DNA of 32,000 nt from Candidatus Altimarinota bacterium (GCA_041659405.1 JBAZYK010000005.1:61796-93795), one strand, 5' to 3'; shown: positions 21,675 to 32,000, counted from the first letter of the stretch. Notes: generated by a model not told the origin, from the sequence alone. Numbers and translations: made by a program.

Positions 21675-23534
21675 ATGGACAATCAAAAAATCGCACAAAT
21701 TTTTCAGGAGATTGGTGATATTCTTGATATTCAGGGCGAAAATCGATTCAGAGTTTTGGCTTACAATAAAGCTGCGCAGGAAATTGCCAACTGGCCAAGA
21801 GAAATGTCCGATGTTTTAAATGAAAATCCCAAAAAACTGGAAGAAATTCCGGGAATCGGCAAAGATCTGGCGCTAAAAATTGTGGAAATGTTAAAAACCG
21901 GAAAGTGCCAATATCATGAAGATTTATTGAAAAAATTTGATAAAGGTCTGCTGCAGATTTTGCGTTTGCGGGGTGTCGGTCCCAAAAAAGTTAAACTTTT
22001 TTATTCGTCTCTCCAAATTAATAATATTGAAAAATTGCGCGCGGCGGCAACGGCGGGAATGCTGCGCGATCTTCCGGGAATGGGCGAAAAAAGCGAACAG
22101 GAAATTTTAAAAAGTCTGGAAGAATACGACAAGCACACGGACAGAATGTTGCTTTCTGATGCGATGCACCAGGTTGAGAAAATTATTGCCTATTTAAAAA
22201 AATGTCCGCTGGTGAAGCGAGTTGAGTATGCGGGAAGTTTGCGCAGACGGAAGGAAACAATTGGCGATCTGGATATTTTGGTGGCGACAAAAAATCCCGC
22301 TAAAGATGCGGAAAAAATCATGGATTATTTTGTGAAATATCCGGAGATGGATAAAGTCATTGGCAAAGGCGAAACCAAGACTTCAATTATTTTAAAATCA
22401 GGGGTGCAATCCGATTTGCGTGTGCTGGATGAGAAAATTTTTGGAGCGGCGTTGCATTATTTTACAGGATCAAAAGATCACAATATTGTAATTCGCGATA
22501 AGGCAAAAAAAATGGGGCTTAAAATCAGTGAATATGGCGTTTTTAGGTTAGAAAAAGCGCGCGGAGGAAAAGAGCCGCGTGAAATTTTGATTGGCGGAAA
22601 AACGGAAGAAGAAATTTTTAAAGCTGTTGGTCTTCCGTATATAGAGCCGGAAATGCGTGAAAATCGTGGAGAATTCCAGGCTGCGGAAAAAGGGAAACTC
22701 CCAAAATTAATTCGCTATGAAGATTTGCGCGGAGATCTGCACGTACACAGCAAATGGAGTGATGGGGCGTGTTCAATCGAGGAAATTGCGCGGGCTTATC
22801 GTGATGCCGGTTTTGAGTATATCGCGCTGACTGATCATTCCCCTGCCGTGACGGTTGCGCATGGACTGAGCGCGGATAGATTTGAATTGCAGTGGGATGA
22901 AATTGATGCGATCAATAAAGATTTGGCTAAGGAGGCCGCGGAGTGGGCAAACAATGGAGGTAAAAAGAATACGCTACAGCAAAATAACGATGGTAAAGCG
23001 TCGTCGGACAAGCCGCCGCTGCCGTTCACTATTTTAAAAGGCGTGGAATGTGACATTAAACCGGATGGAACGATGGATCTGCCGAACAGCGTTTTGAAGC
23101 ATTTTGATGTGGTGGTGGCCTCGATTCATTCGCGTTTTAATATGAGTCTAAAAGAGCAGACCGAACGCGTTTTAAAGGCTTTTAAAAATCCTTATGTCAC
23201 GATTTTTGGACATCCGAGTGGAAGATTAATAAATCAGCGCGAACCTTATGAAATCGATATGGAAGCGGTAATTAACGCGGCCGTGGAACACGATATTTGT
23301 CTGGAAATTGACGGCCAGCCCGATCGCCTGGATCTGTTTGATTTTTACTGCAAAATGGCCAAAGAAAAAGGCGCAAAATTCACCGTGGATTCCGATTCGC
23401 ACCATACCAATCAAATGACTTACTTAAATTTTGCCCTTGCTGTTGCCAAACGCGGCTGGCTGGAAAAAAGCGATGTGATGAACACAATGGGCCTGAAAGA
23501 TTTGAAAAAGTTTTTAATAAAGCGTAAGGGGTGA
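21675..23534 (+). CDS. polX: Family X DNA polymerase with a C-terminal PHP phosphoesterase domain (PolX)
   Basis: N-terminal 8-kDa/HhH region IAQIFQEIGDILDIQGENRFRVLAYNKAAQ. HhH motifs (IPGIGKDLA, LRGVGPKK). Nucleotidyltransferase motif GSLRRRKETIGDLDILV. PHP motifs DLHVHSKWSDG, ALTDHS and SDSH. Confidence 0.9.
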   Translation: MDNQKIAQIFQEIGDILDIQGENRFRVLAYNKAAQEIANWPREMSDVLNENPKKLEEIPGIGKDLALKIVEMLKTGKCQYHEDLLKKFDKGLLQILRLRGVGPKKVKLFYSSLQINNIEKLRAAATAGMLRDLPGMGEKSEQEILKSLEEYDKHTDRMLLSDAMHQVEKIIAYLKKCPLVKRVEYAGSLRRRKETIGDLDILVATKNPAKDAEKIMDYFVKYPEMDKVIGKGETKTSIILKSGVQSDLRVLDEKIFGAALHYFTGSKDHNIVIRDKAKKMGLKISEYGVFRLEKARGGKEPREILIGGKTEEEIFKAVGLPYIEPEMRENRGEFQAAEKGKLPKLIRYEDLRGDLHVHSKWSDGACSIEEIARAYRDAGFEYIALTDHSPAVTVAHGLSADRFELQWDEIDAINKDLAKEAAEWANNGGKKNTLQQNNDGKASSDKPPLPFTILKGVECDIKPDGTMDLPNSVLKHFDVVVASIHSRFNMSLKEQTERVLKAFKNPYVTIFGHPSGRLINQREPYEIDMEAVINAAVEHDICLEIDGQPDRLDLFDFYCKMAKEKGAKFTVDSDSHHTNQMTYLNFALAVAKRGWLEKSDVMNTMGLKDLKKFLIKRKG

Positions 23535-23627: not shown

Positions 23628-25316
23628 ATGCGCCAAGAGATTCAAGAAAAACTCAAAAACATGCCTAATTTGCTTTCTATAGGCCAAGTTTCGGAGATTT
23701 TTGCAATCCATCCGGACACGCTTAGGAATTGGGAGAAAGAAGGCATTCTCGTGCCGTTGCGTTTCGGGCCACGCAAAGATCGCAAATACCGACCACAAGA
23801 TATTGAAGCAATTGTGGATAAGGTCGGCAGCCAACTGACTCTTCCTCAACTCGAAAGATTTTTGTGGAAAAGTGCGGATATTCTTCGCGGAAAGATCGAC
23901 AGTTCAGATTATAAAAAATATATTTTTGGGTTACTTTTTTACAAACGCATCAGTGATGTTTGGGATGAGGAACATGAAAAAGTAATGAGCGAGTTCAATG
24001 ATGAAAATCTTGCTAAAGCCGATTACAATCACCGTTTTCAGGTTACGGAAGACTGTAAATGGTCGGTCATAACGCAGCAGGCTGAAAATATTGGACCAAA
24101 ACTTAATGAAATTTTTGATAAGCTTACAAATGCCAACAGCCCAAAGCTTGATAAGATTTTTGATGATCTGGATTTTGCCAATAAGGACAAATTCCCGAAT
24201 GAAACACTTCAAAAGCTGATCAACCATTTTTCGCAGTATAGCTTTGCCAGCAATTATATCAGTTCGGATTTGCTTGGTGATGCTTATGAATATTTGATCA
24301 AACAATTTGCGGCCGATGCCGGCAAAAAAGGTGGTGAATTTTACACCCCGCGTGAAGTTGAACGCGTTATTATCGAGATCCTCAAGCCAAAAGAAAAAGA
24401 TCATATTTATGACCCAACAGTTGGCTCCGGCGGTTTTTTGTTGGAGTCTTATCATTATCTTAAAGCAAAGGCTGGCGAAAAAATTGCTAATACACTTTAT
24501 CTTTATGGGCAGGAAGCCAATCTTGGAACCTTTGCTATTTCCAAAATCAACATGTTCTTACACGGCCTTGATAGTGCCGATATTCGTCGAGGTGATACTT
24601 TAGCCAATCCTCAATTTTTAGATGACCTTGGGGCTTTGCAAAAGTTTGATATCGTAGTGGCAAACCCGCCGTATTCAATTAAAGAATGGGCAACGGATTT
24701 TTTTAGAACTAATAAGTTTGGTCGGCTTCAGGGCTACGATATGCCACCTGAAAAGAATGCCGATTATGCATTTATTCTGCATATTTTGAAATCACTTAAA
24801 TCAAATGGTCGTGCGGGCGTTGTGCTTCCTCATGGTGTACTTTTTCGTGGTGGCAGTGAAGGAAGAATCCGCGAACAGATCATCAAAAACGATTTACTGG
24901 AATGTGTTATTTCCATGCCTGCAAAACTTTTTTATGGTGTTGGAATTCCGGTTGCAATTTTAATTTTTAATCCCAGTAAACCGGACCACAAAAAGAATAA
25001 GATTATGTTTATCGAAGCCGAAAAAGATTATCTGGAAGGCAAAAATCAGAATTCACTGCGCAAACAGGATATTGATAAAATCGTTGGTACTTATGATTCC
25101 TGGAAAGACGTTGAAAAAATCGCCCGAATTGTGGATCTGAAAGAAATTGAAGGAAATGAATTCAACCTCAACGTTCGCCGTTACATTGATACGAGCGTGG
25201 AAGAAGAAAAGATCGATGTGGCTGCCGTTTGGCAGGAATTGCAAACCCTTGAACAAGACCGCGAAAAAATTGACCAGCAGGTGGCGAGTTATCTTAAAGA
25301 ACTTAAATATTTTTAA
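23628..25316 (+). CDS. hsdM: Type I restriction-modification system methyltransferase subunit (HsdM) with an N-terminal MerR-type HTH extension
   Basis: HsdM_N pattern LPQLERFLWKSADILRGKIDSSDYKKYIFGLLFYKRISD. AdoMet motif I DPTVGSGGFLL. Catalytic motif IV VVANPPYS (N6-adenine MTase). The first 65 aa or so (LLSIGQVSEIFAIHPDTLRNWEKEGILVPLRFGPRKDRKYRPQDIEAI) match the MerR-family HTH pattern. ATG at 23628; the ORF-track start 23619 is a TTG. Confidence 0.9.
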   Translation: MRQEIQEKLKNMPNLLSIGQVSEIFAIHPDTLRNWEKEGILVPLRFGPRKDRKYRPQDIEAIVDKVGSQLTLPQLERFLWKSADILRGKIDSSDYKKYIFGLLFYKRISDVWDEEHEKVMSEFNDENLAKADYNHRFQVTEDCKWSVITQQAENIGPKLNEIFDKLTNANSPKLDKIFDDLDFANKDKFPNETLQKLINHFSQYSFASNYISSDLLGDAYEYLIKQFAADAGKKGGEFYTPREVERVIIEILKPKEKDHIYDPTVGSGGFLLESYHYLKAKAGEKIANTLYLYGQEANLGTFAISKINMFLHGLDSADIRRGDTLANPQFLDDLGALQKFDIVVANPPYSIKEWATDFFRTNKFGRLQGYDMPPEKNADYAFILHILKSLKSNGRAGVVLPHGVLFRGGSEGRIREQIIKNDLLECVISMPAKLFYGVGIPVAILIFNPSKPDHKKNKIMFIEAEKDYLEGKNQNSLRKQDIDKIVGTYDSWKDVEKIARIVDLKEIEGNEFNLNVRRYIDTSVEEEKIDVAAVWQELQTLEQDREKIDQQVASYLKELKYF

Positions 25317-25943
25317 ATGGCTTATATATTTTTAGATGAAAGTGGAGATCTTGGATTTGGGAAAAAATCATCAAAGTTTTTTGTTATAACATTTCTTTTT
25401 GTTGAAAATAAAAGAGTTATCGAGAAGGTTGTTTCAAAAACTCATGCAGAACTTAAAAAAATACATCGAACAAAAAGTGGGATACTGCATTGCTTCCACG
25501 AAAAACCGATTACTCGTCAAAGACTTTTAGCAAGAATAGCTCAAAAGAACTGTATGATTATGACTATTTACCTTGAAAAAGAGAAAGTTTATACAAAATT
25601 ACCTGATGAAAAAATTGTTCTTTATAATTATGTAGCAAACATCCTCCTTGATCGTATTTTTAGCAAAAAGCTTCATGGTGATCATAAAGTCATTTTGATA
25701 GCTTCCAGAAAAGAAACTAACAAATTTTTAAATGAAAATTTCAAAAATTATCTTTCAAGTCAGATAAAAAATAATCATCAGATTGATCTGCAAATAGAAA
25801 TCAAGACGCCACATGATGAAAAAGCACTGCAAGCTGTCGATTTTATCAGCTGGTCAATTTATAGAAAATACGAATATAAAGATCACAATTATTACGATCT
25901 TTTTAAAGAAAAAATCGTGGAAGAAAACCCACTGTATAAATAA
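25317..25943 (+). CDS. DUF3800-family protein (uncharacterised)
   Basis: The N-terminal YIFLDESGDLGF and C-terminal LQAVDFISWSIYRKYE match the two conserved blocks I recall for DUF3800. Its ATG immediately follows the hsdM stop (TAA ATG, no spacer), implying co-transcription or translational coupling. Confidence 0.7.
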   Translation: MAYIFLDESGDLGFGKKSSKFFVITFLFVENKRVIEKVVSKTHAELKKIHRTKSGILHCFHEKPITRQRLLARIAQKNCMIMTIYLEKEKVYTKLPDEKIVLYNYVANILLDRIFSKKLHGDHKVILIASRKETNKFLNENFKNYLSSQIKNNHQIDLQIEIKTPHDEKALQAVDFISWSIYRKYEYKDHNYYDLFKEKIVEENPLYK

Positions 25944-26079
25944 CAAAACCCCTTATGCTATTTACGAGCAACCATTCCGGAAGCCCACATAAGAGGAATT
26001 ACTTGTTCTGGTAATAGTATAGCGTGGACTATACCTTGCGGTCAATATCTATAACATTATGAAATTATATAAATAAATT

Positions 26080-26244
26080 ATGGATACCAATTTAATGCTA
26101 ATATCTCACAATAAAAAATTTGACGAAATAAAAGTTAAATCAGCCTTTACATTGGGTAGACAAGATGTTGTGGATCATCTTGCTGATATCAGCAAAGTGA
26201 TCGTGGGGTGGGTACAATTTGTACCTATCCTTGACGCAAAATGA
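26080..26244 (+). CDS. Possible small protein (54 aa), hypothetical
   Basis: Hand-translated ATG...TGA ORF (MDTNLMLISHNKKFDEIKVKSAFTLGRQDVVDHLADISKVIVGWVQFVPILDAK). It is below the 60-aa cutoff of the ORF track and lies in the otherwise unexplained 319-nt gap 25944-26262. No other support. Confidence 0.25.
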   Translation: MDTNLMLISHNKKFDEIKVKSAFTLGRQDVVDHLADISKVIVGWVQFVPILDAK

Positions 26245-26262
26245 GATGTAAATATGGGCTAG

Positions 26263-26715
26263 ATGGTATTATTTGAATCAATTATGGAATTTAAAAAATT
26301 TAAACCTATGAGTATCTACGATGCCGCCAAGGATGCCGCTAAAATCCTACAGGAAGCAGGAAAAATCAATGAATATCAAAAAATTCTTGATTTGATCGAT
26401 GATTCATTAAACAAAAGGCATAAGATTGATGAGCTCGAAATGGAAAATCGTGAACTCAAAGAAAAGTTGAAGACCAAAGATGCTTATAGCTTCAAAAATA
26501 ACGCTTATTGGCATAAAGAAACTGGCGATGGCCCTTTTTGTTCAAGATGTTTTGATAAGCATAAGGATTTGATTAGGATTATTCCTGATTCTAACAACAG
26601 CAGTTGGGCCAAATGCCCTGAATGTAAAAATAGCGTTAATTACACGGGAAAAGAGGTGAAGCCACGAAGTTACAATGTCTCTGGCGAACATTTTGATCGA
26701 TTTTCAGCTATTTAA
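26263..26715 (+). CDS. Hypothetical coiled-coil protein with a C-terminal CxxC...CxxC zinc ribbon
   Basis: 150 aa. Helical/coiled segment KIDELEMENRELKEKLKTK, then CSRCFDKHKDLIRIIPDSNNSSWAKCPECKN. It ends 8 nt before the next gene. Confidence 0.6.
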   Translation: MVLFESIMEFKKFKPMSIYDAAKDAAKILQEAGKINEYQKILDLIDDSLNKRHKIDELEMENRELKEKLKTKDAYSFKNNAYWHKETGDGPFCSRCFDKHKDLIRIIPDSNNSSWAKCPECKNSVNYTGKEVKPRSYNVSGEHFDRFSAI

Positions 26716-26723
26716 ATTTGTTT

Positions 26724-27398
26724 ATGACAAAAACACCCACACCAAGAAAAACAAGAGATGAATGGCTCAACTTCTGTCAAAGCTATCTATCATTGGCATT
26801 ACTTGCCTGCGATGAAATGCTTGCGAAAAAGTATACAGTTAAATTGATGGATGTGGACATTCCAGCATACAGTGTTCCTTCTTTGTTTTTACCAACTATA
26901 TATAACATCAAACATGGGCTGGAGGTCTTTCTTAAGACATTAAGAATTATCCTTAACGCCCAGTCTAACCCTAAAGAAGGCAAACATAGTAATCTGGAAA
27001 TTTTTACATTATTAAAAAAAGAAATTGATTCTAAACAAATTCAAAGAGTTATTGAATCAGAATGTAAAAAGAAACCGGATGATACAAATCTTAAACTCTT
27101 ACTGAAAGATCTCGCAAATCTAAGCACTTATGTTGATAAAATAGAAAGCTTAGTCATCAAATATGAACACTGTGAAATAATTAAAAACAAAATCCAGACC
27201 GATTTTACGATTATTGATGAGGACAACACAGCTTTTCGCTATCCACAAAATAGCCTTCAAATAAAATTAGACTATCATAAAATTTTAACAAAAATAACTC
27301 CTGAAGATATCCAGGAAATACGGACCGATGCCGAAGCACTTGTAATCAATCTTAACAGTTTAGGGTTCATATTGGATGTTTATAGTCAGTATAAATAA
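26724..27398 (+). CDS. All-alpha protein, HEPN-domain-like (tentative)
   Basis: The layout resembles classical HEPN (PF05168-type) four-helix bundles: EWL...L.LA helix, IKHGLEVFLKTL (cf. the EKALKAL helix), GKHSNLEIF (cf. THDL..L), AFRYP (cf. the RYP motif), then ITPEDIQEIRTDAEAL. No clear Rx4-6H RNase motif is seen. ATG at 26724; the track start 26718 is a TTG. Confidence 0.55.
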   Translation: MTKTPTPRKTRDEWLNFCQSYLSLALLACDEMLAKKYTVKLMDVDIPAYSVPSLFLPTIYNIKHGLEVFLKTLRIILNAQSNPKEGKHSNLEIFTLLKKEIDSKQIQRVIESECKKKPDDTNLKLLLKDLANLSTYVDKIESLVIKYEHCEIIKNKIQTDFTIIDEDNTAFRYPQNSLQIKLDYHKILTKITPEDIQEIRTDAEALVINLNSLGFILDVYSQYK

Positions 27399-27411
27399 TA
27401 TCTTAAAAATC

Positions 27412-27822
27412 ATGCTTACACCGTTAAAAATCACACGAGATAAAGGCGTTGATCTGAAAAGGTTAAATAAGCTTAGAAGGCAAGGCTTAATTAAAATTTA
27501 TGATGTAAAAATTGAAAATGAAACATCTAAGGTACCTGATAAGATCTTGCCTGTCGGAGTTTGGGGACATACAAAATGGGACGAGTGTATATGGGGGGAT
27601 GAGAAGGATAATACCTTTGATAAGACTCTTGAAATTATTGGAAAAGAAAACATCAAGGATGCTATACATTTAGAAGCACATATCCGTAATAAATTTGACT
27701 ATTTTGTTACGAATAATCCAAACGATTTTATTAAAAATGGAAAAAGAGAAAAACTAGAGTTGGAATTTCCTATTTTAAAGATTTTAACAATAGAGGAATT
27801 GGAAAAAATATGTCAGAAATAA
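27412..27822 (+). CDS. Small hypothetical protein with a PIN-like C-terminal half (tentative, possibly degenerate)
   Basis: DAIHLEAHIRNKFDYFVTNNPNDFI resembles the D..HLA.A....D.FvT.D.DF strand-helix-strand of PIN/VapC domains, but has TNN in place of T-x-D. The start is set at ATG 27412 to avoid overlap; the ORF-track start is 27376. Confidence 0.5.
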   Translation: MLTPLKITRDKGVDLKRLNKLRRQGLIKIYDVKIENETSKVPDKILPVGVWGHTKWDECIWGDEKDNTFDKTLEIIGKENIKDAIHLEAHIRNKFDYFVTNNPNDFIKNGKREKLELEFPILKILTIEELEKICQK

Positions 27823-27835
27823 TTTTAAGAAACTT

Positions 27836-28987
27836 ATGAATACTTTGATTCAAAATAAAGATATGCAAAAAACTGTTAAATTTGATCAGCATATAGTTTT
27901 AAACTACGGCTCACCTTTGCCAGCAACAGATAGACTTAAAGGTAATTTCCCTGTTTATGGTTCAAATGGCGTTGTCGGTCATCATGATCAATTTTTAATT
28001 CAAGGACCAGGGATTATTGTTGGGAGAAAGGGAACTATTGGCGCCGTTGTTTGGTCTGAGTCTAGCTTTTGGCCAATTGATACGACTTATTATATTACTG
28101 CTGATGAATCTGTTGATTTACGATGGCTTTATTACAAGTTACAAACTTTAGGATTACAAAAAATGAATATGGCTGGTGGAGTGCCTGGTTTAAATAGAAA
28201 TGAAGTTTATAATTTGAAAATTTCTATTCCTTCAAGACAAGTTCAGCAGAAAATTGCAGAAATTTTGTCAAAAGTTGATGAAGAGATCGAAAAGGTCGAT
28301 CATGCCATAGAAAAAACGGAACAGCTCAAAAATGGCCTGATGCAGGATTTGCTGACGAAAGGCATAGGACACAGCAAATTCAAGAAAACTGAGCTGGGGG
28401 AGATCCCGGAGGAATGGAAAGTTGTAAAATTAAGAGAAAAAACCGTAGGCATTCAATATGGCTTTACTGAGAGCTCTTCAAATCAAAATATTGGACCAAA
28501 GTTTTTACGCATTACAGACATTGTTGATGGAAACGTTAATTGGGATTCGGTGCCTTATTGTGAGTGCCCAGAAGAACAAATTAATAAATATTTATTAAAA
28601 AATGAAGATATTGTATTTGCAAGAACAGGCGCGACTACAGGCAAAAGTTTTTACGTCCAAAATCCACTATTTGCAGTTTTTGCGTCTTATCTTATTAGGG
28701 TTATCTTAGACCAAAAGACAGGTTTTGTTTCAAAATTTGTATATTATTTTTTCCAAAGCGACAAATATTGGAAACAAATTAAATCATCCATATCTGGAAG
28801 CGCACAAGGAGGGTTTAATGCTTCAAAATTGGGTGATTTAAAACTGCCCTTTCCTCCACTTTCTGAACAGTTACAAATATCATCTATTTTATCTTCTATC
28901 GATGATAGAATGGCTATAAGCAAAAAAGTTAAATCAAAACTTGGACAGCTTAAGGAAGGGTTAATGCAAAATCTTTTTAATAACTAA
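27836..28987 (+). CDS. hsdS: Type I restriction-modification system specificity subunit (HsdS), two target-recognition domains
   Basis: Two TRD-like halves (FPVYGSNGVVGHHD...IIVGRKGTIGAV and LRITDI..GNVNW...IVFARTGATTGKSF). Each is followed by a conserved helical spacer (IPSRQVQQKIAEILSKVDEEIE...LKNGLMQDLLTKG and LPFPPLSEQLQISSILSSIDDRM...LKEGLMQNLF). Confidence 0.9.
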   Translation: MNTLIQNKDMQKTVKFDQHIVLNYGSPLPATDRLKGNFPVYGSNGVVGHHDQFLIQGPGIIVGRKGTIGAVVWSESSFWPIDTTYYITADESVDLRWLYYKLQTLGLQKMNMAGGVPGLNRNEVYNLKISIPSRQVQQKIAEILSKVDEEIEKVDHAIEKTEQLKNGLMQDLLTKGIGHSKFKKTELGEIPEEWKVVKLREKTVGIQYGFTESSSNQNIGPKFLRITDIVDGNVNWDSVPYCECPEEQINKYLLKNEDIVFARTGATTGKSFYVQNPLFAVFASYLIRVILDQKTGFVSKFVYYFFQSDKYWKQIKSSISGSAQGGFNASKLGDLKLPFPPLSEQLQISSILSSIDDRMAISKKVKSKLGQLKEGLMQNLFNN

Positions 28988-28993
28988 TGTTAA

Positions 28994-29698
28994 ATGAATT
29001 TGATGACTAAAATTAAATTGCCTTATATAGCTGCCCTTTTCGCATTAATAAGCTTTTTATTTGCTTTGGGTATTTCATATAATAATATTTTTCAAAATTC
29101 CAGTTGGTTTAACACACTCATAAATCCAATTTCTGCAGGAGATAAAAGCTCTATTACTCAAACCTCTTGGACTATTGCGGGATTTTTCCTTGCGGCTTTT
29201 GGATTAAGTGAATTGATAGAAAAGTTAAATCGAAAAATCGCTCCAGGATTCCTGATGGATAGATCTGAGAAAATACTTATAACGTTAAAATTGCCACCTG
29301 CCGTTTTTGATATCAGTTTTAGTGTTGTTAACCGGGGAAATAAATCGTTAAAGCCTGAGGATCATGTCTATTTCCAGTTGTTGATTCCTTCTGAAATATT
29401 TAAGGAGGTACTTTATATTAAATACAATGGTGAAGGTAATTTAATTGGACCACTAAAGAGAGAAAATTCCGTAAAAAATGGATATGTGACTATTGGTGGC
29501 ATCATCAATGATGCCATTCACCCTAAAAGATGTATTGAGCAATTTAAGATTAAAATGTCTTTTTCTAAAATCGGGAAATATAAAATATTATATTTTTTTA
29601 ATACAGAGAATGGTTTTTATCCCAAAAAGTATAATGAAATAAATTTAACAGGTTTAGAGGAATTAGAAATAGATGTTGAAAATCAACTTACTGATTAA
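28994..29698 (+). CDS. Two-TM membrane protein with a C-terminal beta-rich soluble domain, hypothetical
   Basis: 234 aa. Hydrophobic helices YIAALFALISFLFALGISY and WTIAGFFLAAFGLSELI. It starts 6 nt after the hsdS stop and ends 8 nt before the hsdR ATG, so it is almost certainly part of the operon. Confidence 0.6.
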   Translation: MNLMTKIKLPYIAALFALISFLFALGISYNNIFQNSSWFNTLINPISAGDKSSITQTSWTIAGFFLAAFGLSELIEKLNRKIAPGFLMDRSEKILITLKLPPAVFDISFSVVNRGNKSLKPEDHVYFQLLIPSEIFKEVLYIKYNGEGNLIGPLKRENSVKNGYVTIGGIINDAIHPKRCIEQFKIKMSFSKIGKYKILYFFNTENGFYPKKYNEINLTGLEELEIDVENQLTD

Positions 29699-29706
29699 AT
29701 CTCCTT

Positions 29707-32000
29707 ATGCGCTTCAACGAACAATACACTGTCGAAAATTTTATTCTGGATTTCTTTCAGAAGCCTTTGGGTTATGAATATATTCCGCCGCAGAAGTTTG
29801 CCGCTTTTAGGCAGTTTGAAAATGAGTATGTTATTACTCCCCTTTTGCTTGATGCTGTTAAGAAAATCAATAAAATACATGATGATACTGAAGCGCAAAA
29901 TGTTGTCCGTGAGATTAAAAAGATTGATACAAATGAAGGTTTTTTGAATTTGATGCGGAATGGAATTAACCTGAAAGATCCCGCGCAGGCAGGTCGCATG
30001 CGCGATTATTTTGTGGTCGATTTTGAGAATCTAAAAAATAATCATTTTGTGGTTACAAATCAGTTTTATTTTGAGGGAAATGCGGAAAATATTCGTCCGG
30101 ATATTTTGGTGTTTTTGAATGGCTTGCCGATTGCCGATATAGAGGCTAAAAGCCCTACTGCTGCCAATAATGTTAATTATGAAAAGGCCATTGATCAGCT
30201 GAAACGTTACGAGAAAAATGCCTGGAAACTTTTTTTGCCGAACTGTTTTAATGTTGCTACAGATGGCCTTAAAACTGTTTATGGTGCTACATATAGCCCT
30301 AAACAGCACTTTTTACAGTGGCGCGATGATGTATTAGCTCAGTTTTTTGGTGGTGAATTGGAAATGACTTTGGGGGCTCTATTCCATAAAGAAAAACTGC
30401 TGGATATAATCAAGAATTTTATTCTGTTTGAAAAGGAAAAAGAGCGAACCACCAAAAAGATCTGTCGTTATCAACAATATCGGGCAACCAACCTGATTGT
30501 GGATCGCGTAAAAGGCGCCGAAAAGAAGCGTGGGCTTATTTGGCACACCCAGGGCAGCGGCAAGAGCATTACGATGTTTTATACAGCCTGGAAGCTGCGT
30601 TTTGATCAACAACTAAAGAATCCAAAGATTTTTGTTTTGGTGGATCGCATTGATCTTGATGATCAGATTTATCAAACATTTACAAACTGTGGAGGGGAAA
30701 ACGTGGTGCGGGTGACTTCACGCAAGGATTTGGAAAGCAAAATTCGCTCACCGGAACGTGGTATTTTCATTTCAACAATTCAAAAATTCAGCGAGCTTGA
30801 AGACGAAATTAAAAGTCTGGACCACAATACAATTGTCCTTTGCGATGAAGCCCATCGTGATAATGAAGGCGTTGCCGCAATTAACCTGCGTTCGGCGCTA
30901 CAGAATGCTTTCTTTTTTGGGTTTACCGGAACTCCAATTGACAAAAAAACTCTCAATACTCATCGCAATTTTGGTGAAGAGGGCGAGCGTTATTTGGACT
31001 ATTATTCCATTCAGCAAGCGATTGAAGATGGCACAACCCTGCCGGTAACTTTTGAAGCCCGTCTTTCCAAGTTTTTTATTGATGAAGAAAAAATTGATCA
31101 GCAGTTTGAAGAATTTGCCGCTGATTTAAGCGAAGAGCAAAAAACAAAACTTATTCAAAAATATGGCAAAAAAGCTTCATTGGTAAAGCTGGATAAGCGC
31201 ATGGAAGCCATTGCGCAGGACATTGTTGAGCATTATAAGCTTTATGTGGAGCCAAATGGCTTTAAAGCGCAAATTGTTTGCGCAGACCGTGAAGCCTGTG
31301 TGAAATATAAAAAACTTTTGGACAATTTGATTCCCGCAGATTGGTCGGCCATTATTTACTCTGCAGGCGATCCAAACAGTAGCAATGAAAGCGAAGAGGA
31401 GACAAAAAAATACAATACAACCAAGCCGGAAAGAGAAAGAATGATTGAAAATTTTAAAGATCGTGAAAATCCGTTACGATTTTTAATTGTCTGCGACATG
31501 CTTTTGACTGGTTTTGATGCGCCAAATGAACAGGTAATGTATTTGGATAAGCCTTTGCGTGACCATAATTTGCTGCAGGCTATTGCGCGCACAAATCGGG
31601 TTTATCCTAATAAGGGTTGTGGGAAAATTATTGATTATTACGGAATCACCCGTAATTTGTATGCTGCGCTGGATTTTGATGAAAGCATTGTCAGTTCAGC
31701 AATGTTGAATATTGATGAGTTTAAAAAGCGATTTACGGCTGTTTTAGACGAAGTTATGAAGCTATTTAATGGTTTCAACATTGAAGATCCTTCTTTGGGG
31801 AATTTGCGCAGATGTTTGAAGGTTTTTGTTGATAATGCTGAACAGCAAAACTATTTCCGGACGTTATATACAGAATTAAAACAACTTTTTGAAATTTTAT
31901 CTCCTGATCCTTTTTTGAAGGAGCATTTGCGTAAATTTGAATGGTTGACGAGTTTGTTTTTGGCTTTTACTAAAGAATTTGGAGAACAAAATGGTGGCCA
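29707..32000 (+). CDS. hsdR: Type I restriction enzyme R subunit (HsdR), 3'-truncated by the window edge
   Basis: Hand-translated from ATG 29707 (MRFNEQYTVENFILDFF...). Open to the window end, which is why it is absent from the ORF track. N-terminal PD-(D/E)xK nuclease motif RPDILVFLNGLPIADIEAK. Helicase motif I WHTQGSGKSITM, motif II VLCDEAHR, motif III FGFTGTP, and later LIVCDMLLTGFDAP and QAIARTNR. Confidence 0.9.
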   Translation, partial: MRFNEQYTVENFILDFFQKPLGYEYIPPQKFAAFRQFENEYVITPLLLDAVKKINKIHDDTEAQNVVREIKKIDTNEGFLNLMRNGINLKDPAQAGRMRDYFVVDFENLKNNHFVVTNQFYFEGNAENIRPDILVFLNGLPIADIEAKSPTAANNVNYEKAIDQLKRYEKNAWKLFLPNCFNVATDGLKTVYGATYSPKQHFLQWRDDVLAQFFGGELEMTLGALFHKEKLLDIIKNFILFEKEKERTTKKICRYQQYRATNLIVDRVKGAEKKRGLIWHTQGSGKSITMFYTAWKLRFDQQLKNPKIFVLVDRIDLDDQIYQTFTNCGGENVVRVTSRKDLESKIRSPERGIFISTIQKFSELEDEIKSLDHNTIVLCDEAHRDNEGVAAINLRSALQNAFFFGFTGTPIDKKTLNTHRNFGEEGERYLDYYSIQQAIEDGTTLPVTFEARLSKFFIDEEKIDQQFEEFAADLSEEQKTKLIQKYGKKASLVKLDKRMEAIAQDIVEHYKLYVEPNGFKAQIVCADREACVKYKKLLDNLIPADWSAIIYSAGDPNSSNESEEETKKYNTTKPERERMIENFKDRENPLRFLIVCDMLLTGFDAPNEQVMYLDKPLRDHNLLQAIARTNRVYPNKGCGKIIDYYGITRNLYAALDFDESIVSSAMLNIDEFKKRFTAVLDEVMKLFNGFNIEDPSLGNLRRCLKVFVDNAEQQNYFRTLYTELKQLFEILSPDPFLKEHLRKFEWLTSLFLAFTKEFGEQNGG

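What the first reader, a model, noticed from the sequence alone, without database searches (positions are those of the whole stretch)
25317..29698. Type I R-M operon interrupted by a five-to-six-gene uncharacterised cassette: candidate new defence or abortive-infection module
Canonical type I loci are hsdM-hsdS-hsdR or hsdR-hsdM-hsdS with little in between. Here hsdM (23628-25316) and hsdS (27836-28987) are separated by 2.5 kb. That interval encodes a DUF3800 protein, a possible 54-aa ORF, a coiled-coil/zinc-ribbon protein, a HEPN-like protein and a PIN-like protein. A 2-TM protein is wedged between hsdS and hsdR.

All are co-directional with 0-13-nt junctions, apart from one 319-nt gap, so they are expected to be co-expressed with the R-M genes.

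There is precedent for second-line defence genes nested in type I loci. The PrrC anticodon nuclease, whose nuclease domain belongs to the HEPN superfamily, sits inside the E. coli prr hsd locus. The rlo genes sit in Campylobacter type I loci. I do not recognise this particular combination (DUF3800 + Zn-ribbon + HEPN-like + PIN-like + TM protein) as any named system.
Basis: partly seen in the sequence, partly recalled or inferred. Interest (0 to 1): 0.8.

Follow-up and report, generated by a model that had tools for sequence, protein, structure and literature searches.

The report
Mixed accessory genes inside restriction operon
An intact type I restriction-modification operon from an uncultured bacterium carries a patchwork of unrelated, mostly unannotated accessory genes at its two subunit junctions; this is a known way for bacteria to stack candidate anti-phage genes, not one new six-gene system.

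Summary
The gene layout is exactly as described: hsdM, then six co-directional ORFs, hsdS, one more ORF, then hsdR, with 0-13-nt junctions and one 319-nt gap.

The R-M genes are intact. A is DUF3800 (RNase H-like). D has a HEPN fold but lacks the Rx4-6H motif. E is PIN/VapC-like by conserved motifs only. F is an orphan membrane protein. The 54-aa ORF is doubtful. None of the six hits PADLOC, including its embedded-candidate models.

The six genes are not a conserved set:
- D relatives sit directly 5' of hsdS in 5 of 6 other loci, never with E.
- E relatives lie in type I operons in 7 of 10 other loci, never with D, and their upstream neighbours vary (AbiTii, DUF5677, ATPase, TPR, membrane proteins).
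- A sister operon (hsdM 71% identical) keeps E before hsdS but carries different cargo.
- An A homologue sits in the other junction in another locus.

Best reading: the hsdM|hsdS and hsdS|hsdR junctions are hotspots for independently acquired embedded genes. This matches the known pattern of PrrC, TgvAB and "guilt by embedding". D and E are new, unannotated, hsdS-linked candidate nuclease families. Any defence function is inferred, not shown. Interest is moderate.

The parts
23628..25316 (+). hsdM, with an N-terminal MerR-type HTH fused to HsdM_N and the N6 methyltransferase domain
   Evidence: Pfam N6_Mtase 1.6e-106, HsdM_N 8.7e-27, MerR_1 2.9e-9. PADLOC MTase_I 8e-145.
25317..25943 (+). A: DUF3800 protein (208 aa), a predicted RNase H-fold nuclease
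   Evidence: PF12686 6.1e-15, 56.6 bits against a cutoff of 21. phrog_9243 2e-13. DESG at residue 7 and QAVD at residue 172. A 49-50% identical homologue lies in the hsdS-hsdR interval of L006.
25944..26030 (+). Conserved non-coding stretch directly 3' of the DUF3800 gene; candidate RNA or regulatory element (n=2 only)
   Evidence: 65% identity to the equivalent 3' flank in L006. For comparison, third codon positions of the two genes are 47% identical and the sequence further downstream is 35% identical. There is a shared stem with 2 compensatory pairs. No Rfam hit.
26080..26244 (+). B: 54-aa ORF, doubtful as a gene
   Evidence: No family or homologue. It ends in TGA, used by only 2 of 29 ORFs. 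It contains two strong hairpins, 26173-26202 and 26205-26231.
26263..26715 (+). C: 150-aa protein with a charged helical N-terminal half and a C-terminal CxxC...CxxC zinc ribbon
   Evidence: phrog_1244 4.6e-9, function unknown. Weak DUF7837 match 2.9e-4, below cutoff. Cys pairs at residues 93 and 118. No relatives in phage or viral collections or in the related loci.
26724..27398 (+). D: 224-aa HEPN-fold protein of an unannotated, hsdS-linked family
   Evidence: 182 cluster representatives in the exhaustive search. Invariant H64, E67, K71, H88, D165, N168, P174. AF2 model pLDDT 94.6. Top PDB fold hit is the sacsin HEPN domain, prob 0.99, E 0.11. Sub-threshold Pfam HEPN in 18/61 members. Directly 5' of hsdS in L027, L028, L029, L031 and L032.
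27412..27822 (+). E: 136-aa putative PIN/VapC-like protein (alternative start 27376, overlapping D) of an unannotated, R-M-linked family
   Evidence: 31 homologues. Invariant D10, D83, D96, T100; nearly invariant E35, D105. AF2 model pLDDT 88.9, alpha/beta. hhalign against VapC 3TND gives E 0.051, aligning D83 with D98 and D105 with E119. Found in type I operons in L004, L006, L009, L016, L018, L019 and L035.
27836..28987 (+). hsdS, with two target-recognition domains
   Evidence: Methylase_S 9.9e-39, 2 stretches. PADLOC Specificity_I 1.9e-69.
28994..29698 (+). F: 234-aa orphan membrane protein in the hsdS-hsdR junction
   Evidence: Strong TM helix at residues 6-30. Only itself found among 5.8 billion proteins by the word-indexed search. 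No family hits.
29707..32000 (+). hsdR (runs off the window; 972 aa in the parent contig)
   Evidence: TIGR00348 5.1e-167. Full-length gene with HSDR_N, ResIII, SWI2_SNF2 and T1RH-like_C in L001.

Best explanation
This is an intact type I restriction-modification operon (MerR-HTH-HsdM, HsdS, HsdR) of an uncultured bacterium that NCBI labels Candidatus Gracilibacteria. Its two subunit junctions, hsdM|hsdS and hsdS|hsdR, act as hotspots where unrelated accessory genes accumulate.

The cargo here is a mosaic of independent units:
- a DUF3800 RNase H-like nuclease with a conserved 3' flank;
- a zinc-ribbon protein;
- a HEPN-fold protein (D);
- a small PIN/VapC-like protein (E);
- a membrane protein (F).

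D and E belong to two separate families that are each habitually placed directly in front of hsdS, with short gaps or overlapping junctions. They are therefore probably co-expressed with the specificity subunit.

The most likely function is inferred, not shown. They would be second-line, abortive-infection-type nucleases co-expressed with the R-M enzyme. Like PrrC with EcoprrI, they would become active when a phage disables or escapes restriction.
For: Shown:
- The R-M genes are intact.
- D relatives were found in type I loci directly 5' of hsdS in 5 of 6 other loci. L027 is hsdM-RhuM-D-hsdS. L028 is hsdM-305aa-D-hsdS-M78-DUF4411-AAA_14-hsdR. L029 is RVT_3-D-hsdS. L031 is D-hsdS. L032 is hsdM-D-hsdS-...-hsdR. 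None of them has E.
- E relatives were found in type I operons in 7 of 10 other informative loci: L004, L006, L009, L016, L018, L019 and L035. In 4 of these (L004, L018, L019, L035) E directly abuts or overlaps hsdS. The remaining three loci lie next to other R-M or defence-candidate genes: HincII R-M plus NERD, PDC-S18, and ParB-MTase. None has D.
- E's upstream neighbour varies: AbiTii, DUF5677, an OLD/AriA-like ATPase, a TPR protein, membrane proteins, or none.
- The sister operon L035 has hsdM 71% identical, E 54% and hsdS 36%, but entirely different cargo on both sides.
- The A homologue (49% identical) lies in the hsdS-hsdR junction of L006.
- G+C falls to 30-35% across 25000-30000, against 39-45% in the flanks.

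From the literature:
- Embedded genes are common in type I R-M and most are uncharacterised (10.1101/2024.01.29.577857).
- TgvAB is a tested example (PMC11411939).
- HEPN-T genes cluster with R-M operons, and the PrrC guard model is described (PMC3710099).
Against: - No experiment or expression data exist; defence function rests on guilt by embedding.
- D lacks the Rx4-6H catalytic motif of active HEPN RNases and falls below Pfam's HEPN threshold.
- E's PIN assignment is not confirmed by fold search or by a PDB profile search.
- Context samples are small (7 D loci and 11 E loci, counting the window), mostly short metagenomic contigs, and were chosen by availability.
- E's constant position before hsdS could equally mean it is an R-M accessory or regulatory subunit rather than independent cargo.
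- No insertion scars or flanking repeats were found.
Confidence: 0.6

Rival explanations
1. D and E (perhaps with C) form one functional module here: a HEPN protein plus a PIN-like partner. It would work as a toxin-antitoxin-like or sensor-effector abortive-infection pair. E would be a portable effector that pairs with interchangeable upstream HEPN-type or ATPase sensor genes.
For: - D and E are separated by 13 nt, or overlap by 23 nt if E starts at 27376.
- In other loci E overlaps its upstream gene by 4-20 nt.
- Several upstream partners look HEPN-like or sensor-like. AbiTii domains are reported fused to the c2405 HEPN family (PMC3710099). The DUF5677 protein has an RLSEYSH motif. The OLD/AriA-like ATPase has a C-terminal RNCIHH motif.
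Against: - D occurs without E in 6 of 6 other loci, and E without D in 10 of 10.
- In L016 E follows hsdM directly with no partner.
- Other partners are membrane or TPR proteins with no HEPN signature.
- Profile comparisons of D with the AbiTii and DUF5677 partners found nothing.
- Pfam found no HEPN in the partners' C-terminal parts.
Confidence: 0.2
2. E, and possibly D, is not a defence effector. It would be an accessory, regulatory or assembly factor of this subfamily of type I R-M enzymes, for example controlling HsdS level or restriction alleviation. The other ORFs would be neutral passengers.
For: - E is retained directly before hsdS in the sister operon while the other cargo changes.
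- Junctions with hsdS are short or overlapping in L004, L018, L019 and L035, and D overlaps hsdS in L028, L029 and L031.
- D lacks the HEPN catalytic motif.
Against: - E also occurs away from type I genes, next to a type II R-M, PDC-S18 and a ParB-MTase.
- E keeps a full set of conserved acidic residues typical of a nuclease active site.
- Most type I systems work without such genes.
Confidence: 0.12
3. All six ORFs form a single, novel multi-gene defence system that is co-inherited as a cassette.
For: The genes are co-directional and tightly packed, have uniformly low G+C, and none matches a named system.
Against: - The combination was found only on this one contig sequence, seen in several samples.
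- The components assort independently wherever relatives exist.
- One of the six ORFs is doubtful.
Confidence: 0.05

Closest known systems
PrrC / EcoprrI (and RloC): anticodon nuclease embedded in a type Ic R-M locus
   Same: A latent HEPN-superfamily protein encoded inside an hsdMSR operon. The proposed logic is a second-line response when restriction is disabled (PMC3710099).
   Different: PrrC has an N-terminal ABC ATPase and a canonical Rx4-6H HEPN, and sits between hsdS and hsdR. D is a stand-alone HEPN-T-like protein without the R...H motif and sits 5' of hsdS. No interaction or activity is known for D.
'Guilt-by-embedding' candidates (HEC/PDC) and TgvAB in type I R-M, BREX, DISARM and Hma operons
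   Same: Variable accessory genes nested between subunit genes of a multi-gene restriction system. Many are predicted RNases (HEPN, PIN-like), and more than half have unknown function (10.1101/2024.01.29.577857; PMC11411939).
   Different: None of A-F matches any HEC, PDC or other PADLOC v2.0.0 model. Neighbours in related loci do match: PDC-S18, AbiTii and OLD/AriA-like models.
HEPN-T (PF05168) family, including sacsin HEPN and MNT-associated HEPN
   Same: D's best fold match is the sacsin HEPN domain. 18 of 61 family members give weak PF05168 hits over the helix carrying H64/E67/K71. This family is reported to cluster with R-M operons (PMC3710099).
   Different: Scores are below Pfam's cutoff. 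There is no MNT nucleotidyltransferase partner. D is about 100 residues longer than the HEPN domains it matches (224 aa against 117-136). The conserved set is H, E, K, H, D, N rather than Rx4-6H.
VapC-type PIN nucleases
   Same: Small alpha/beta protein with conserved acidic residues in PIN order (D10, E35, D83, D105). Its C-terminal 'DAxHLEAHI...FVTxNxxDF' resembles VapC 'DQMIAGHA...IVTNNTREF'.
   Different: No significant sequence-profile or Foldseek match to any PIN structure. There is no adjacent VapB-like antitoxin. The genomic niche is R-M operons.
DUF3800 proteins of retron type VII, Cas12a2-linked loci and the DUF3800 RNA motifs
   Same: A is a bona fide DUF3800 protein with DE and QxxD motifs. 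DUF3800 is a predicted RNase H-like nuclease linked to defence systems and to 11 structured RNA motifs (PMC7736814, PMC10910872, PMC5737381).
   Different: Here it stands alone in an R-M operon with no RT or Cas12. No known DUF3800 RNA motif is detected; there is only an unvalidated conserved 3' flank.

Membership tests
Type I restriction-modification system | HsdM (N6-adenine MTase with HsdM_N), HsdS with two target-recognition domains, and HsdR (SF2 helicase-nuclease), all in one locus | tested here: met
   N6_Mtase 1.6e-106; Methylase_S with 2 stretches; TIGR00348 5e-167; 972-aa HsdR in L001.
Type I restriction-modification system | Methylation and ATP-dependent restriction activity | not testable with these tools
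   Sequence only.
DUF3800 (PF12686) | Profile match above the gathering score, with an N-terminal DE motif and a C-terminal QxxD motif | tested here: met
   56.6 bits against a cutoff of 21. DESG at residue 7 and QAVD at residue 172.
HEPN superfamily (for D) | All-alpha HEPN fold | tested here: met
   AF2 model pLDDT 94.6. The top Foldseek PDB hit is sacsin HEPN 3o10_C (prob 0.99, E 0.11, TM 0.57 on the target); 4nqf HEPN is also listed. Support is modest.
HEPN superfamily (for D) | Conserved Rx4-6H catalytic motif | tested here: not met
   The 61-sequence alignment has invariant H64 and H88 but no conserved Arg. In the F[RK]YP motif the position alternates between R and K.
HEPN domain PF05168 (HEPN-T) | Pfam match at or above the gathering score (22 bits) | tested here: not met
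   The window protein has no hit. 18/61 relatives hit weakly; in the 10 relatives scanned individually the best was 19.2 bits, E 1.4e-3, and the best E-value across all 61 members was 3.8e-5.
PIN / VapC nucleases (for E) | Four conserved acidic residues in PIN order | tested here: met
   D10 and D83 are invariant; E35 and D105 are at least 90% conserved in 31 sequences. D83 and D105 align with VapC D98 and E119.
PIN / VapC nucleases (for E) | Significant sequence-profile or structural match to a known PIN domain | tested here: inconclusive
PrrC/RloC-type anticodon nuclease | N-terminal ABC ATPase fused to a C-terminal HEPN with Rx4-6H | tested here: not met
   No ATPase domain in any of A-F. 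D lacks the motif.
Known or candidate defence systems in PADLOC-DB v2.0.0 (including HEC and PDC) | Match of any cassette protein to a system model | tested here: not met
   Zero meaningful hits for A-F at E <= 1. The same library recognises PDC-S18, AbiTii and Old/AriA in neighbouring loci.
HEPN-MNT toxin-antitoxin | Adjacent minimal nucleotidyltransferase partner | tested here: not met
   No NTP_transf match in C, E or any neighbour.
   0/6 other D loci carry E, and 0/10 other E loci carry D. C and F are absent from all loci. A occurs once, in another junction.

The most novel reading that the evidence does not exclude
E, and separately D, are HsdS-coupled 'guard' nucleases of previously unannotated families. 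E would be a portable PIN-like effector that plugs in directly upstream of hsdS and teams up with interchangeable upstream sensor genes (HEPN-type, AbiTii, OLD-like ATPase, membrane proteins). Together these would form a modular family of R-M-embedded abortive-infection systems, triggered when phage anti-restriction proteins hit the type I complex. In addition, the DUF3800 gene with its conserved 3' element could be an RNA-dependent nuclease module riding in the same operon.
Probability: 0.2. Interest if true: 0.65.

Novelty: new member of a known kind. Interest (0 to 1): 0.4.

Why it matters
The locus adds two unannotated protein families to the pool of genes embedded in type I R-M operons. 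One is HEPN-fold (about 180 clusters at 50% identity). The other is PIN-like (about 30 sequences). Both show an unusually strict position directly 5' of hsdS.

If they are PrrC-like guards, surveillance of restriction enzymes by latent nucleases would be more widespread and structurally more diverse than the single classical example. It would also extend into candidate-phyla-radiation bacteria, where defence biology is almost unstudied.

The practical value is as a shortlist for cloning and phage or anti-restriction challenge. It is not a new class of system.

Tried and rejected
- **Alternative genetic code.** I checked code 25 because NCBI labels the contig Gracilibacteria. 27 of 29 ORFs end in TAA or TAG, but no ORF is broken by an in-frame TGA. 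The PolX gene is complete at its TGA, so table 11 calls stand.
- **Known DUF3800 RNA motifs.** Rfam at gathering threshold and at E<=10 found none in the 319-nt gap.
- **Folding z-score of the gap.** It is -3.67, but this is not specific: coding windows in D and hsdS reach -5.7 and -3.95 with my mononucleotide shuffles.
- **Pattern built from the conserved 3' flank.** It hit two viral contigs, but not next to DUF3800 genes. Those matches sit at a Shine-Dalgarno-like site and I treated them as chance.
- **Searches with no result.** tblastn of D against plasmids and C against phages found nothing. Viral-contig scans for A, C, D and E found nothing.
- **Orphans by word-indexed search.** D and F each found only themselves. 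The exhaustive search rescued D; F was not retested that way.
- **HD-phosphohydrolase reading of D** (H...HD...D). Rejected because the 'D' of HD is N or S in many members, including this one.
- **Profile comparisons.** E against a DUF4411 PIN-like neighbour, and D against the AbiTii and DUF5677 partners, showed no relationship.
- **HEPN in partner C-terminal parts.** Pfam found none.
- **PDB profile searches.** Nothing relevant for D or E.
- **Mobile-cassette repeats.** No flanking repeats mark a mobile cassette.

Full report
**Observation**

The order is:
- hsdM (23619/23628-25316);
- A (25317-25943);
- a 54-aa ORF B (26080-26244) inside a 319-nt gap;
- C (26263-26715);
- D (26718/26724-27398);
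- E (27412-27822, or 27376 if it overlaps D);
- hsdS (27836-28987);
- F (28994-29698);
- hsdR from 29707 to beyond the window end.

All genes are on the + strand, with junctions of 0-13 nt apart from the gap.

The R-M genes are intact. hsdM matches N6_Mtase at 1.6e-106 and HsdM_N. hsdS carries two Methylase_S stretches. hsdR matches TIGR00348 at 5e-167 and is 972 aa in the parent contig.

The window is part of a 106-kb metagenomic contig that NCBI labels Candidatus Gracilibacteria. Some members of that group read TGA as glycine, so I checked stop usage. 27 of 29 ORFs end in TAA or TAG, but no long ORF is interrupted by TGA. The PolX gene is complete at its TGA, so the standard-code ORF calls hold.

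**What each embedded ORF is**

- **A** is a genuine DUF3800 protein: PF12686 at 6e-15, above the cutoff, with DESG and QAVD motifs. The literature describes DUF3800 as an RNase H-like predicted nuclease. It is linked to type VII retrons (PMC7736814), to a Cas12a2 branch (PMC10910872), and to eleven structured RNA motifs of unknown function (PMC5737381).
- **B** has no relatives. It ends in the rare TGA and is largely made of two strong hairpins. I regard it as doubtful.
- **C** has a charged helical half and a CxxC...CxxC zinc ribbon. It matches only phrog_1244, of unknown function.
- **D** found only itself in the word-indexed search. The exhaustive HMMER search returned 182 cluster representatives of about 220 aa.
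  - The family alignment has invariant H64, E67, K71, H88, D165, N168 and P174, and no conserved arginine.
  - An AlphaFold model built on that alignment is confident (pLDDT 94.6).
  - Its best PDB match is the sacsin HEPN domain (prob 0.99, E 0.11).
  - 18 of 61 members give sub-threshold Pfam HEPN hits over the helix that carries H64/E67/K71.
  - So D has a HEPN fold of the HEPN-T type but lacks the Rx4-6H motif.
- **E** has 31 homologues, with invariant D10, D83, D96 and T100 and near-invariant E35 and D105.
  - Its model is a small alpha/beta domain (pLDDT 88.9).
  - Foldseek against PDB and BFVD returned only generic Rossmann-like folds. A PDB profile search found nothing relevant.
  - I compared the family with Shigella VapC, after verifying my recalled sequence against 3TND. 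The result was E 0.051. The alignment puts D83 on catalytic D98 and D105 on E119.
  - PIN-like is therefore plausible but unproven.
- **F** has one strong N-terminal TM helix, and no homologue was found by the word-indexed search.

None of A-F matches PADLOC v2.0.0, NCBIfam, or (apart from A) Pfam above threshold. The PADLOC copy does contain the HEC and PDC embedded candidates, because it recognised PDC-S18, AbiTii and Old/AriA in neighbouring loci.

**Is it one system?**

The decisive evidence is genomic context elsewhere.

*E family.* Of 10 other informative loci, 7 are type I R-M operons:

| Locus | Layout |
|---|---|
| L004 | hsdM-TPR protein-E-hsdS-...-hsdR |
| L006 | hsdM-...-AbiTii protein-E-267aa-hsdS-DUF3800-DUF3800-hsdR |
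| L009 | hsdM-hsdS-hsdR-269aa-DUF5677-E |
| L016 | hsdM-E-107aa-hsdS |
| L018 | hsdM-OLD/AriA-like ATPase-E-hsdS |
| L019 | membrane protein-E-hsdS-Shedu(SduA_C)-hsdR |
| L035 | hsdM-169aa-E-hsdS-... |

The other three E loci lie beside a HincII type II R-M plus a NERD nuclease, the candidate PDC-S18, and a ParB-methyltransferase. E's junctions with its upstream gene and with hsdS are usually overlapping.

*D family.* Of 6 other loci, 5 are type I loci with D directly 5' of hsdS: L027 (hsdM-RhuM-D-hsdS), L028, L029, L031 and L032. The sixth, L030, lies next to an isoleucyl-tRNA synthetase gene.

No other D locus contains E, and no other E locus contains D. The only A homologue (49% identical) sits in the hsdS-hsdR junction of L006. 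C and F have no relatives in any of these loci.

Most telling is the sister operon L035. Its MerR-HsdM is 71% identical to the window's. It keeps E (54% identical) immediately before hsdS. But it has a 169-aa membrane protein where the window has A-B-C-D, and two different ORFs where the window has F.

G+C drops to 30-35% across the cargo, hsdS and F, against 39-45% in the flanks.

Together these results show a mosaic assembled at two hotspots, not a co-inherited cassette.

**Mechanism**

The following is shown:
- co-directional, tightly packed genes inside an intact R-M operon;
- recurrent, position-specific embedding of the D and E families next to hsdS;
- independent assortment of the components.

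The following is inferred:
- D (HEPN fold) and E (PIN-like acidic tetrad) are latent nucleases co-expressed with HsdS.
- By analogy with PrrC held in check by EcoprrI (PMC3710099), they act as a second line of defence when restriction is evaded or inhibited.
- A is an RNase H-like nuclease, perhaps working with a nearby RNA.
- F is a membrane effector or exclusion protein.

I put about 0.6 on the mosaic-of-embedded-defence-genes reading. About 0.2 goes to D+E being a working pair in this locus, with E a portable effector served by interchangeable upstream sensors. Motif-level hints for that reading are RLSEYSH in the DUF5677 partner, RNCIHH at the C-terminus of the ATPase partner, and the published AbiTii-HEPN fusions (PMC3710099). 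Profile comparisons and Pfam did not confirm these hints. About 0.12 goes to E or D being R-M accessory or regulatory factors rather than effectors. About 0.05 goes to the original single-cassette idea.

**Comparison with what is known**

Nesting of variable defence genes in type I R-M operons is established:
- TgvAB in Vibrio cholerae VPI-2 (PMC11411939);
- the systematic 'guilt-by-embedding' survey, which found more than half of embedded genes uncharacterised and validated HEPN- and PIN-like examples (10.1101/2024.01.29.577857).

HEPN-T genes clustering with R-M operons was noted in 2013 (PMC3710099). What is new here is modest. There are two unannotated families with a strict pre-hsdS position, and a CPR-type host. 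Hence 'new member of a known kind', with interest about 0.4.

**Side observation**

The first ~85 nt after the stop codons of the two A-type DUF3800 genes (window and L006) are 65% identical. That compares with 47% at third codon positions and 35% further downstream. The two flanks share a stem with two compensatory pairs.

Given the published link between DUF3800 genes and structured RNAs, this is a lead for a further motif. However, it rests on two sequences and no Rfam model matches. The gap's folding z-score is also not unusual compared with some coding windows.

Noticed in passing
window 25944-26030; L006 6629-6712: About 85 nt directly 3' of two homologous DUF3800 genes are conserved: 65% identity, against 47% at third codon positions and 35% further downstream. 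They share a stem with 2 compensatory pairs. This may be a new DUF3800-associated RNA or regulatory element. It rests on only two examples and has no Rfam match.
   Followed up: partly
window 26080-26244: The 54-aa ORF B is probably not a gene. It has no relatives and ends in TGA, which only 2 of 29 ORFs use. It is largely made of two strong hairpins (26173-26202 at -15.6 kcal/mol; 26205-26231 at -16.2 kcal/mol).
   Followed up: partly
window, all ORFs; PolX 21675-23534: Stop codons are TAA or TAG in 27 of 29 ORFs, and NCBI labels the contig Gracilibacteria (some members use code 25). No ORF is broken by TGA. Reading through the PolX TGA would run in frame for 593 codons through hsdM. TGA therefore looks like a rare genuine stop here.
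   Followed up: partly
window ~23676-23810 (N-terminus of hsdM); L035 4844-6508: HsdM carries an N-terminal MerR-type HTH (MerR_1 2.9e-9). The sister operon L035 has the same architecture (hsdM 71% identical). This could be a built-in regulator of the operon.
   Followed up: no
window 25000-30000: G+C falls to 30-35% across the embedded genes, hsdS and F, against 39-45% in hsdM, hsdR and the flanking genome.
   Followed up: partly
L018 5009-6457: The gene upstream of the E homologue is an OLD/AriA/GajA-like ABC ATPase (482 aa) ending in an RNCIHH motif. It may be a PrrC-like ATPase-HEPN fusion paired with the PIN-like gene. Pfam did not confirm a HEPN domain.
   Followed up: partly
L019 2410-3561; L006 4919-6628; L028 9874-13490; L015 574-1497: Related type I loci carry other cargo in the hsdS-hsdR junction or beside E. 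Examples are a Shedu SduA_C nuclease, two DUF3800 paralogues, M78 peptidase + DUF4411 + AAA_14, and PDC-S18. This illustrates the hotspot behaviour.
   Followed up: partly
window 26059-26084 and 26263-26288: A 26-nt direct repeat (81% identical) links the sequence just upstream of ORF B to the 5' end of gene C. It could be a remnant of a duplication, or chance in AT-rich DNA.
   Followed up: no
window 26861-27186 and 28165-28490: Coding windows inside D and hsdS have strongly negative folding z-scores (-5.7 and -3.95 with mononucleotide shuffles), as extreme as the intergenic gap. The cause is unknown. This weakens the z-score as evidence for an RNA in the gap.
   Followed up: no
L012 4906-5139: A 77-aa CxxC...CxxC zinc-ribbon ORF lies just upstream of the E homologue in a type II R-M context. 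This loosely echoes the zinc-ribbon protein C two genes upstream of E in the window. No sequence similarity was detected.
   Followed up: no
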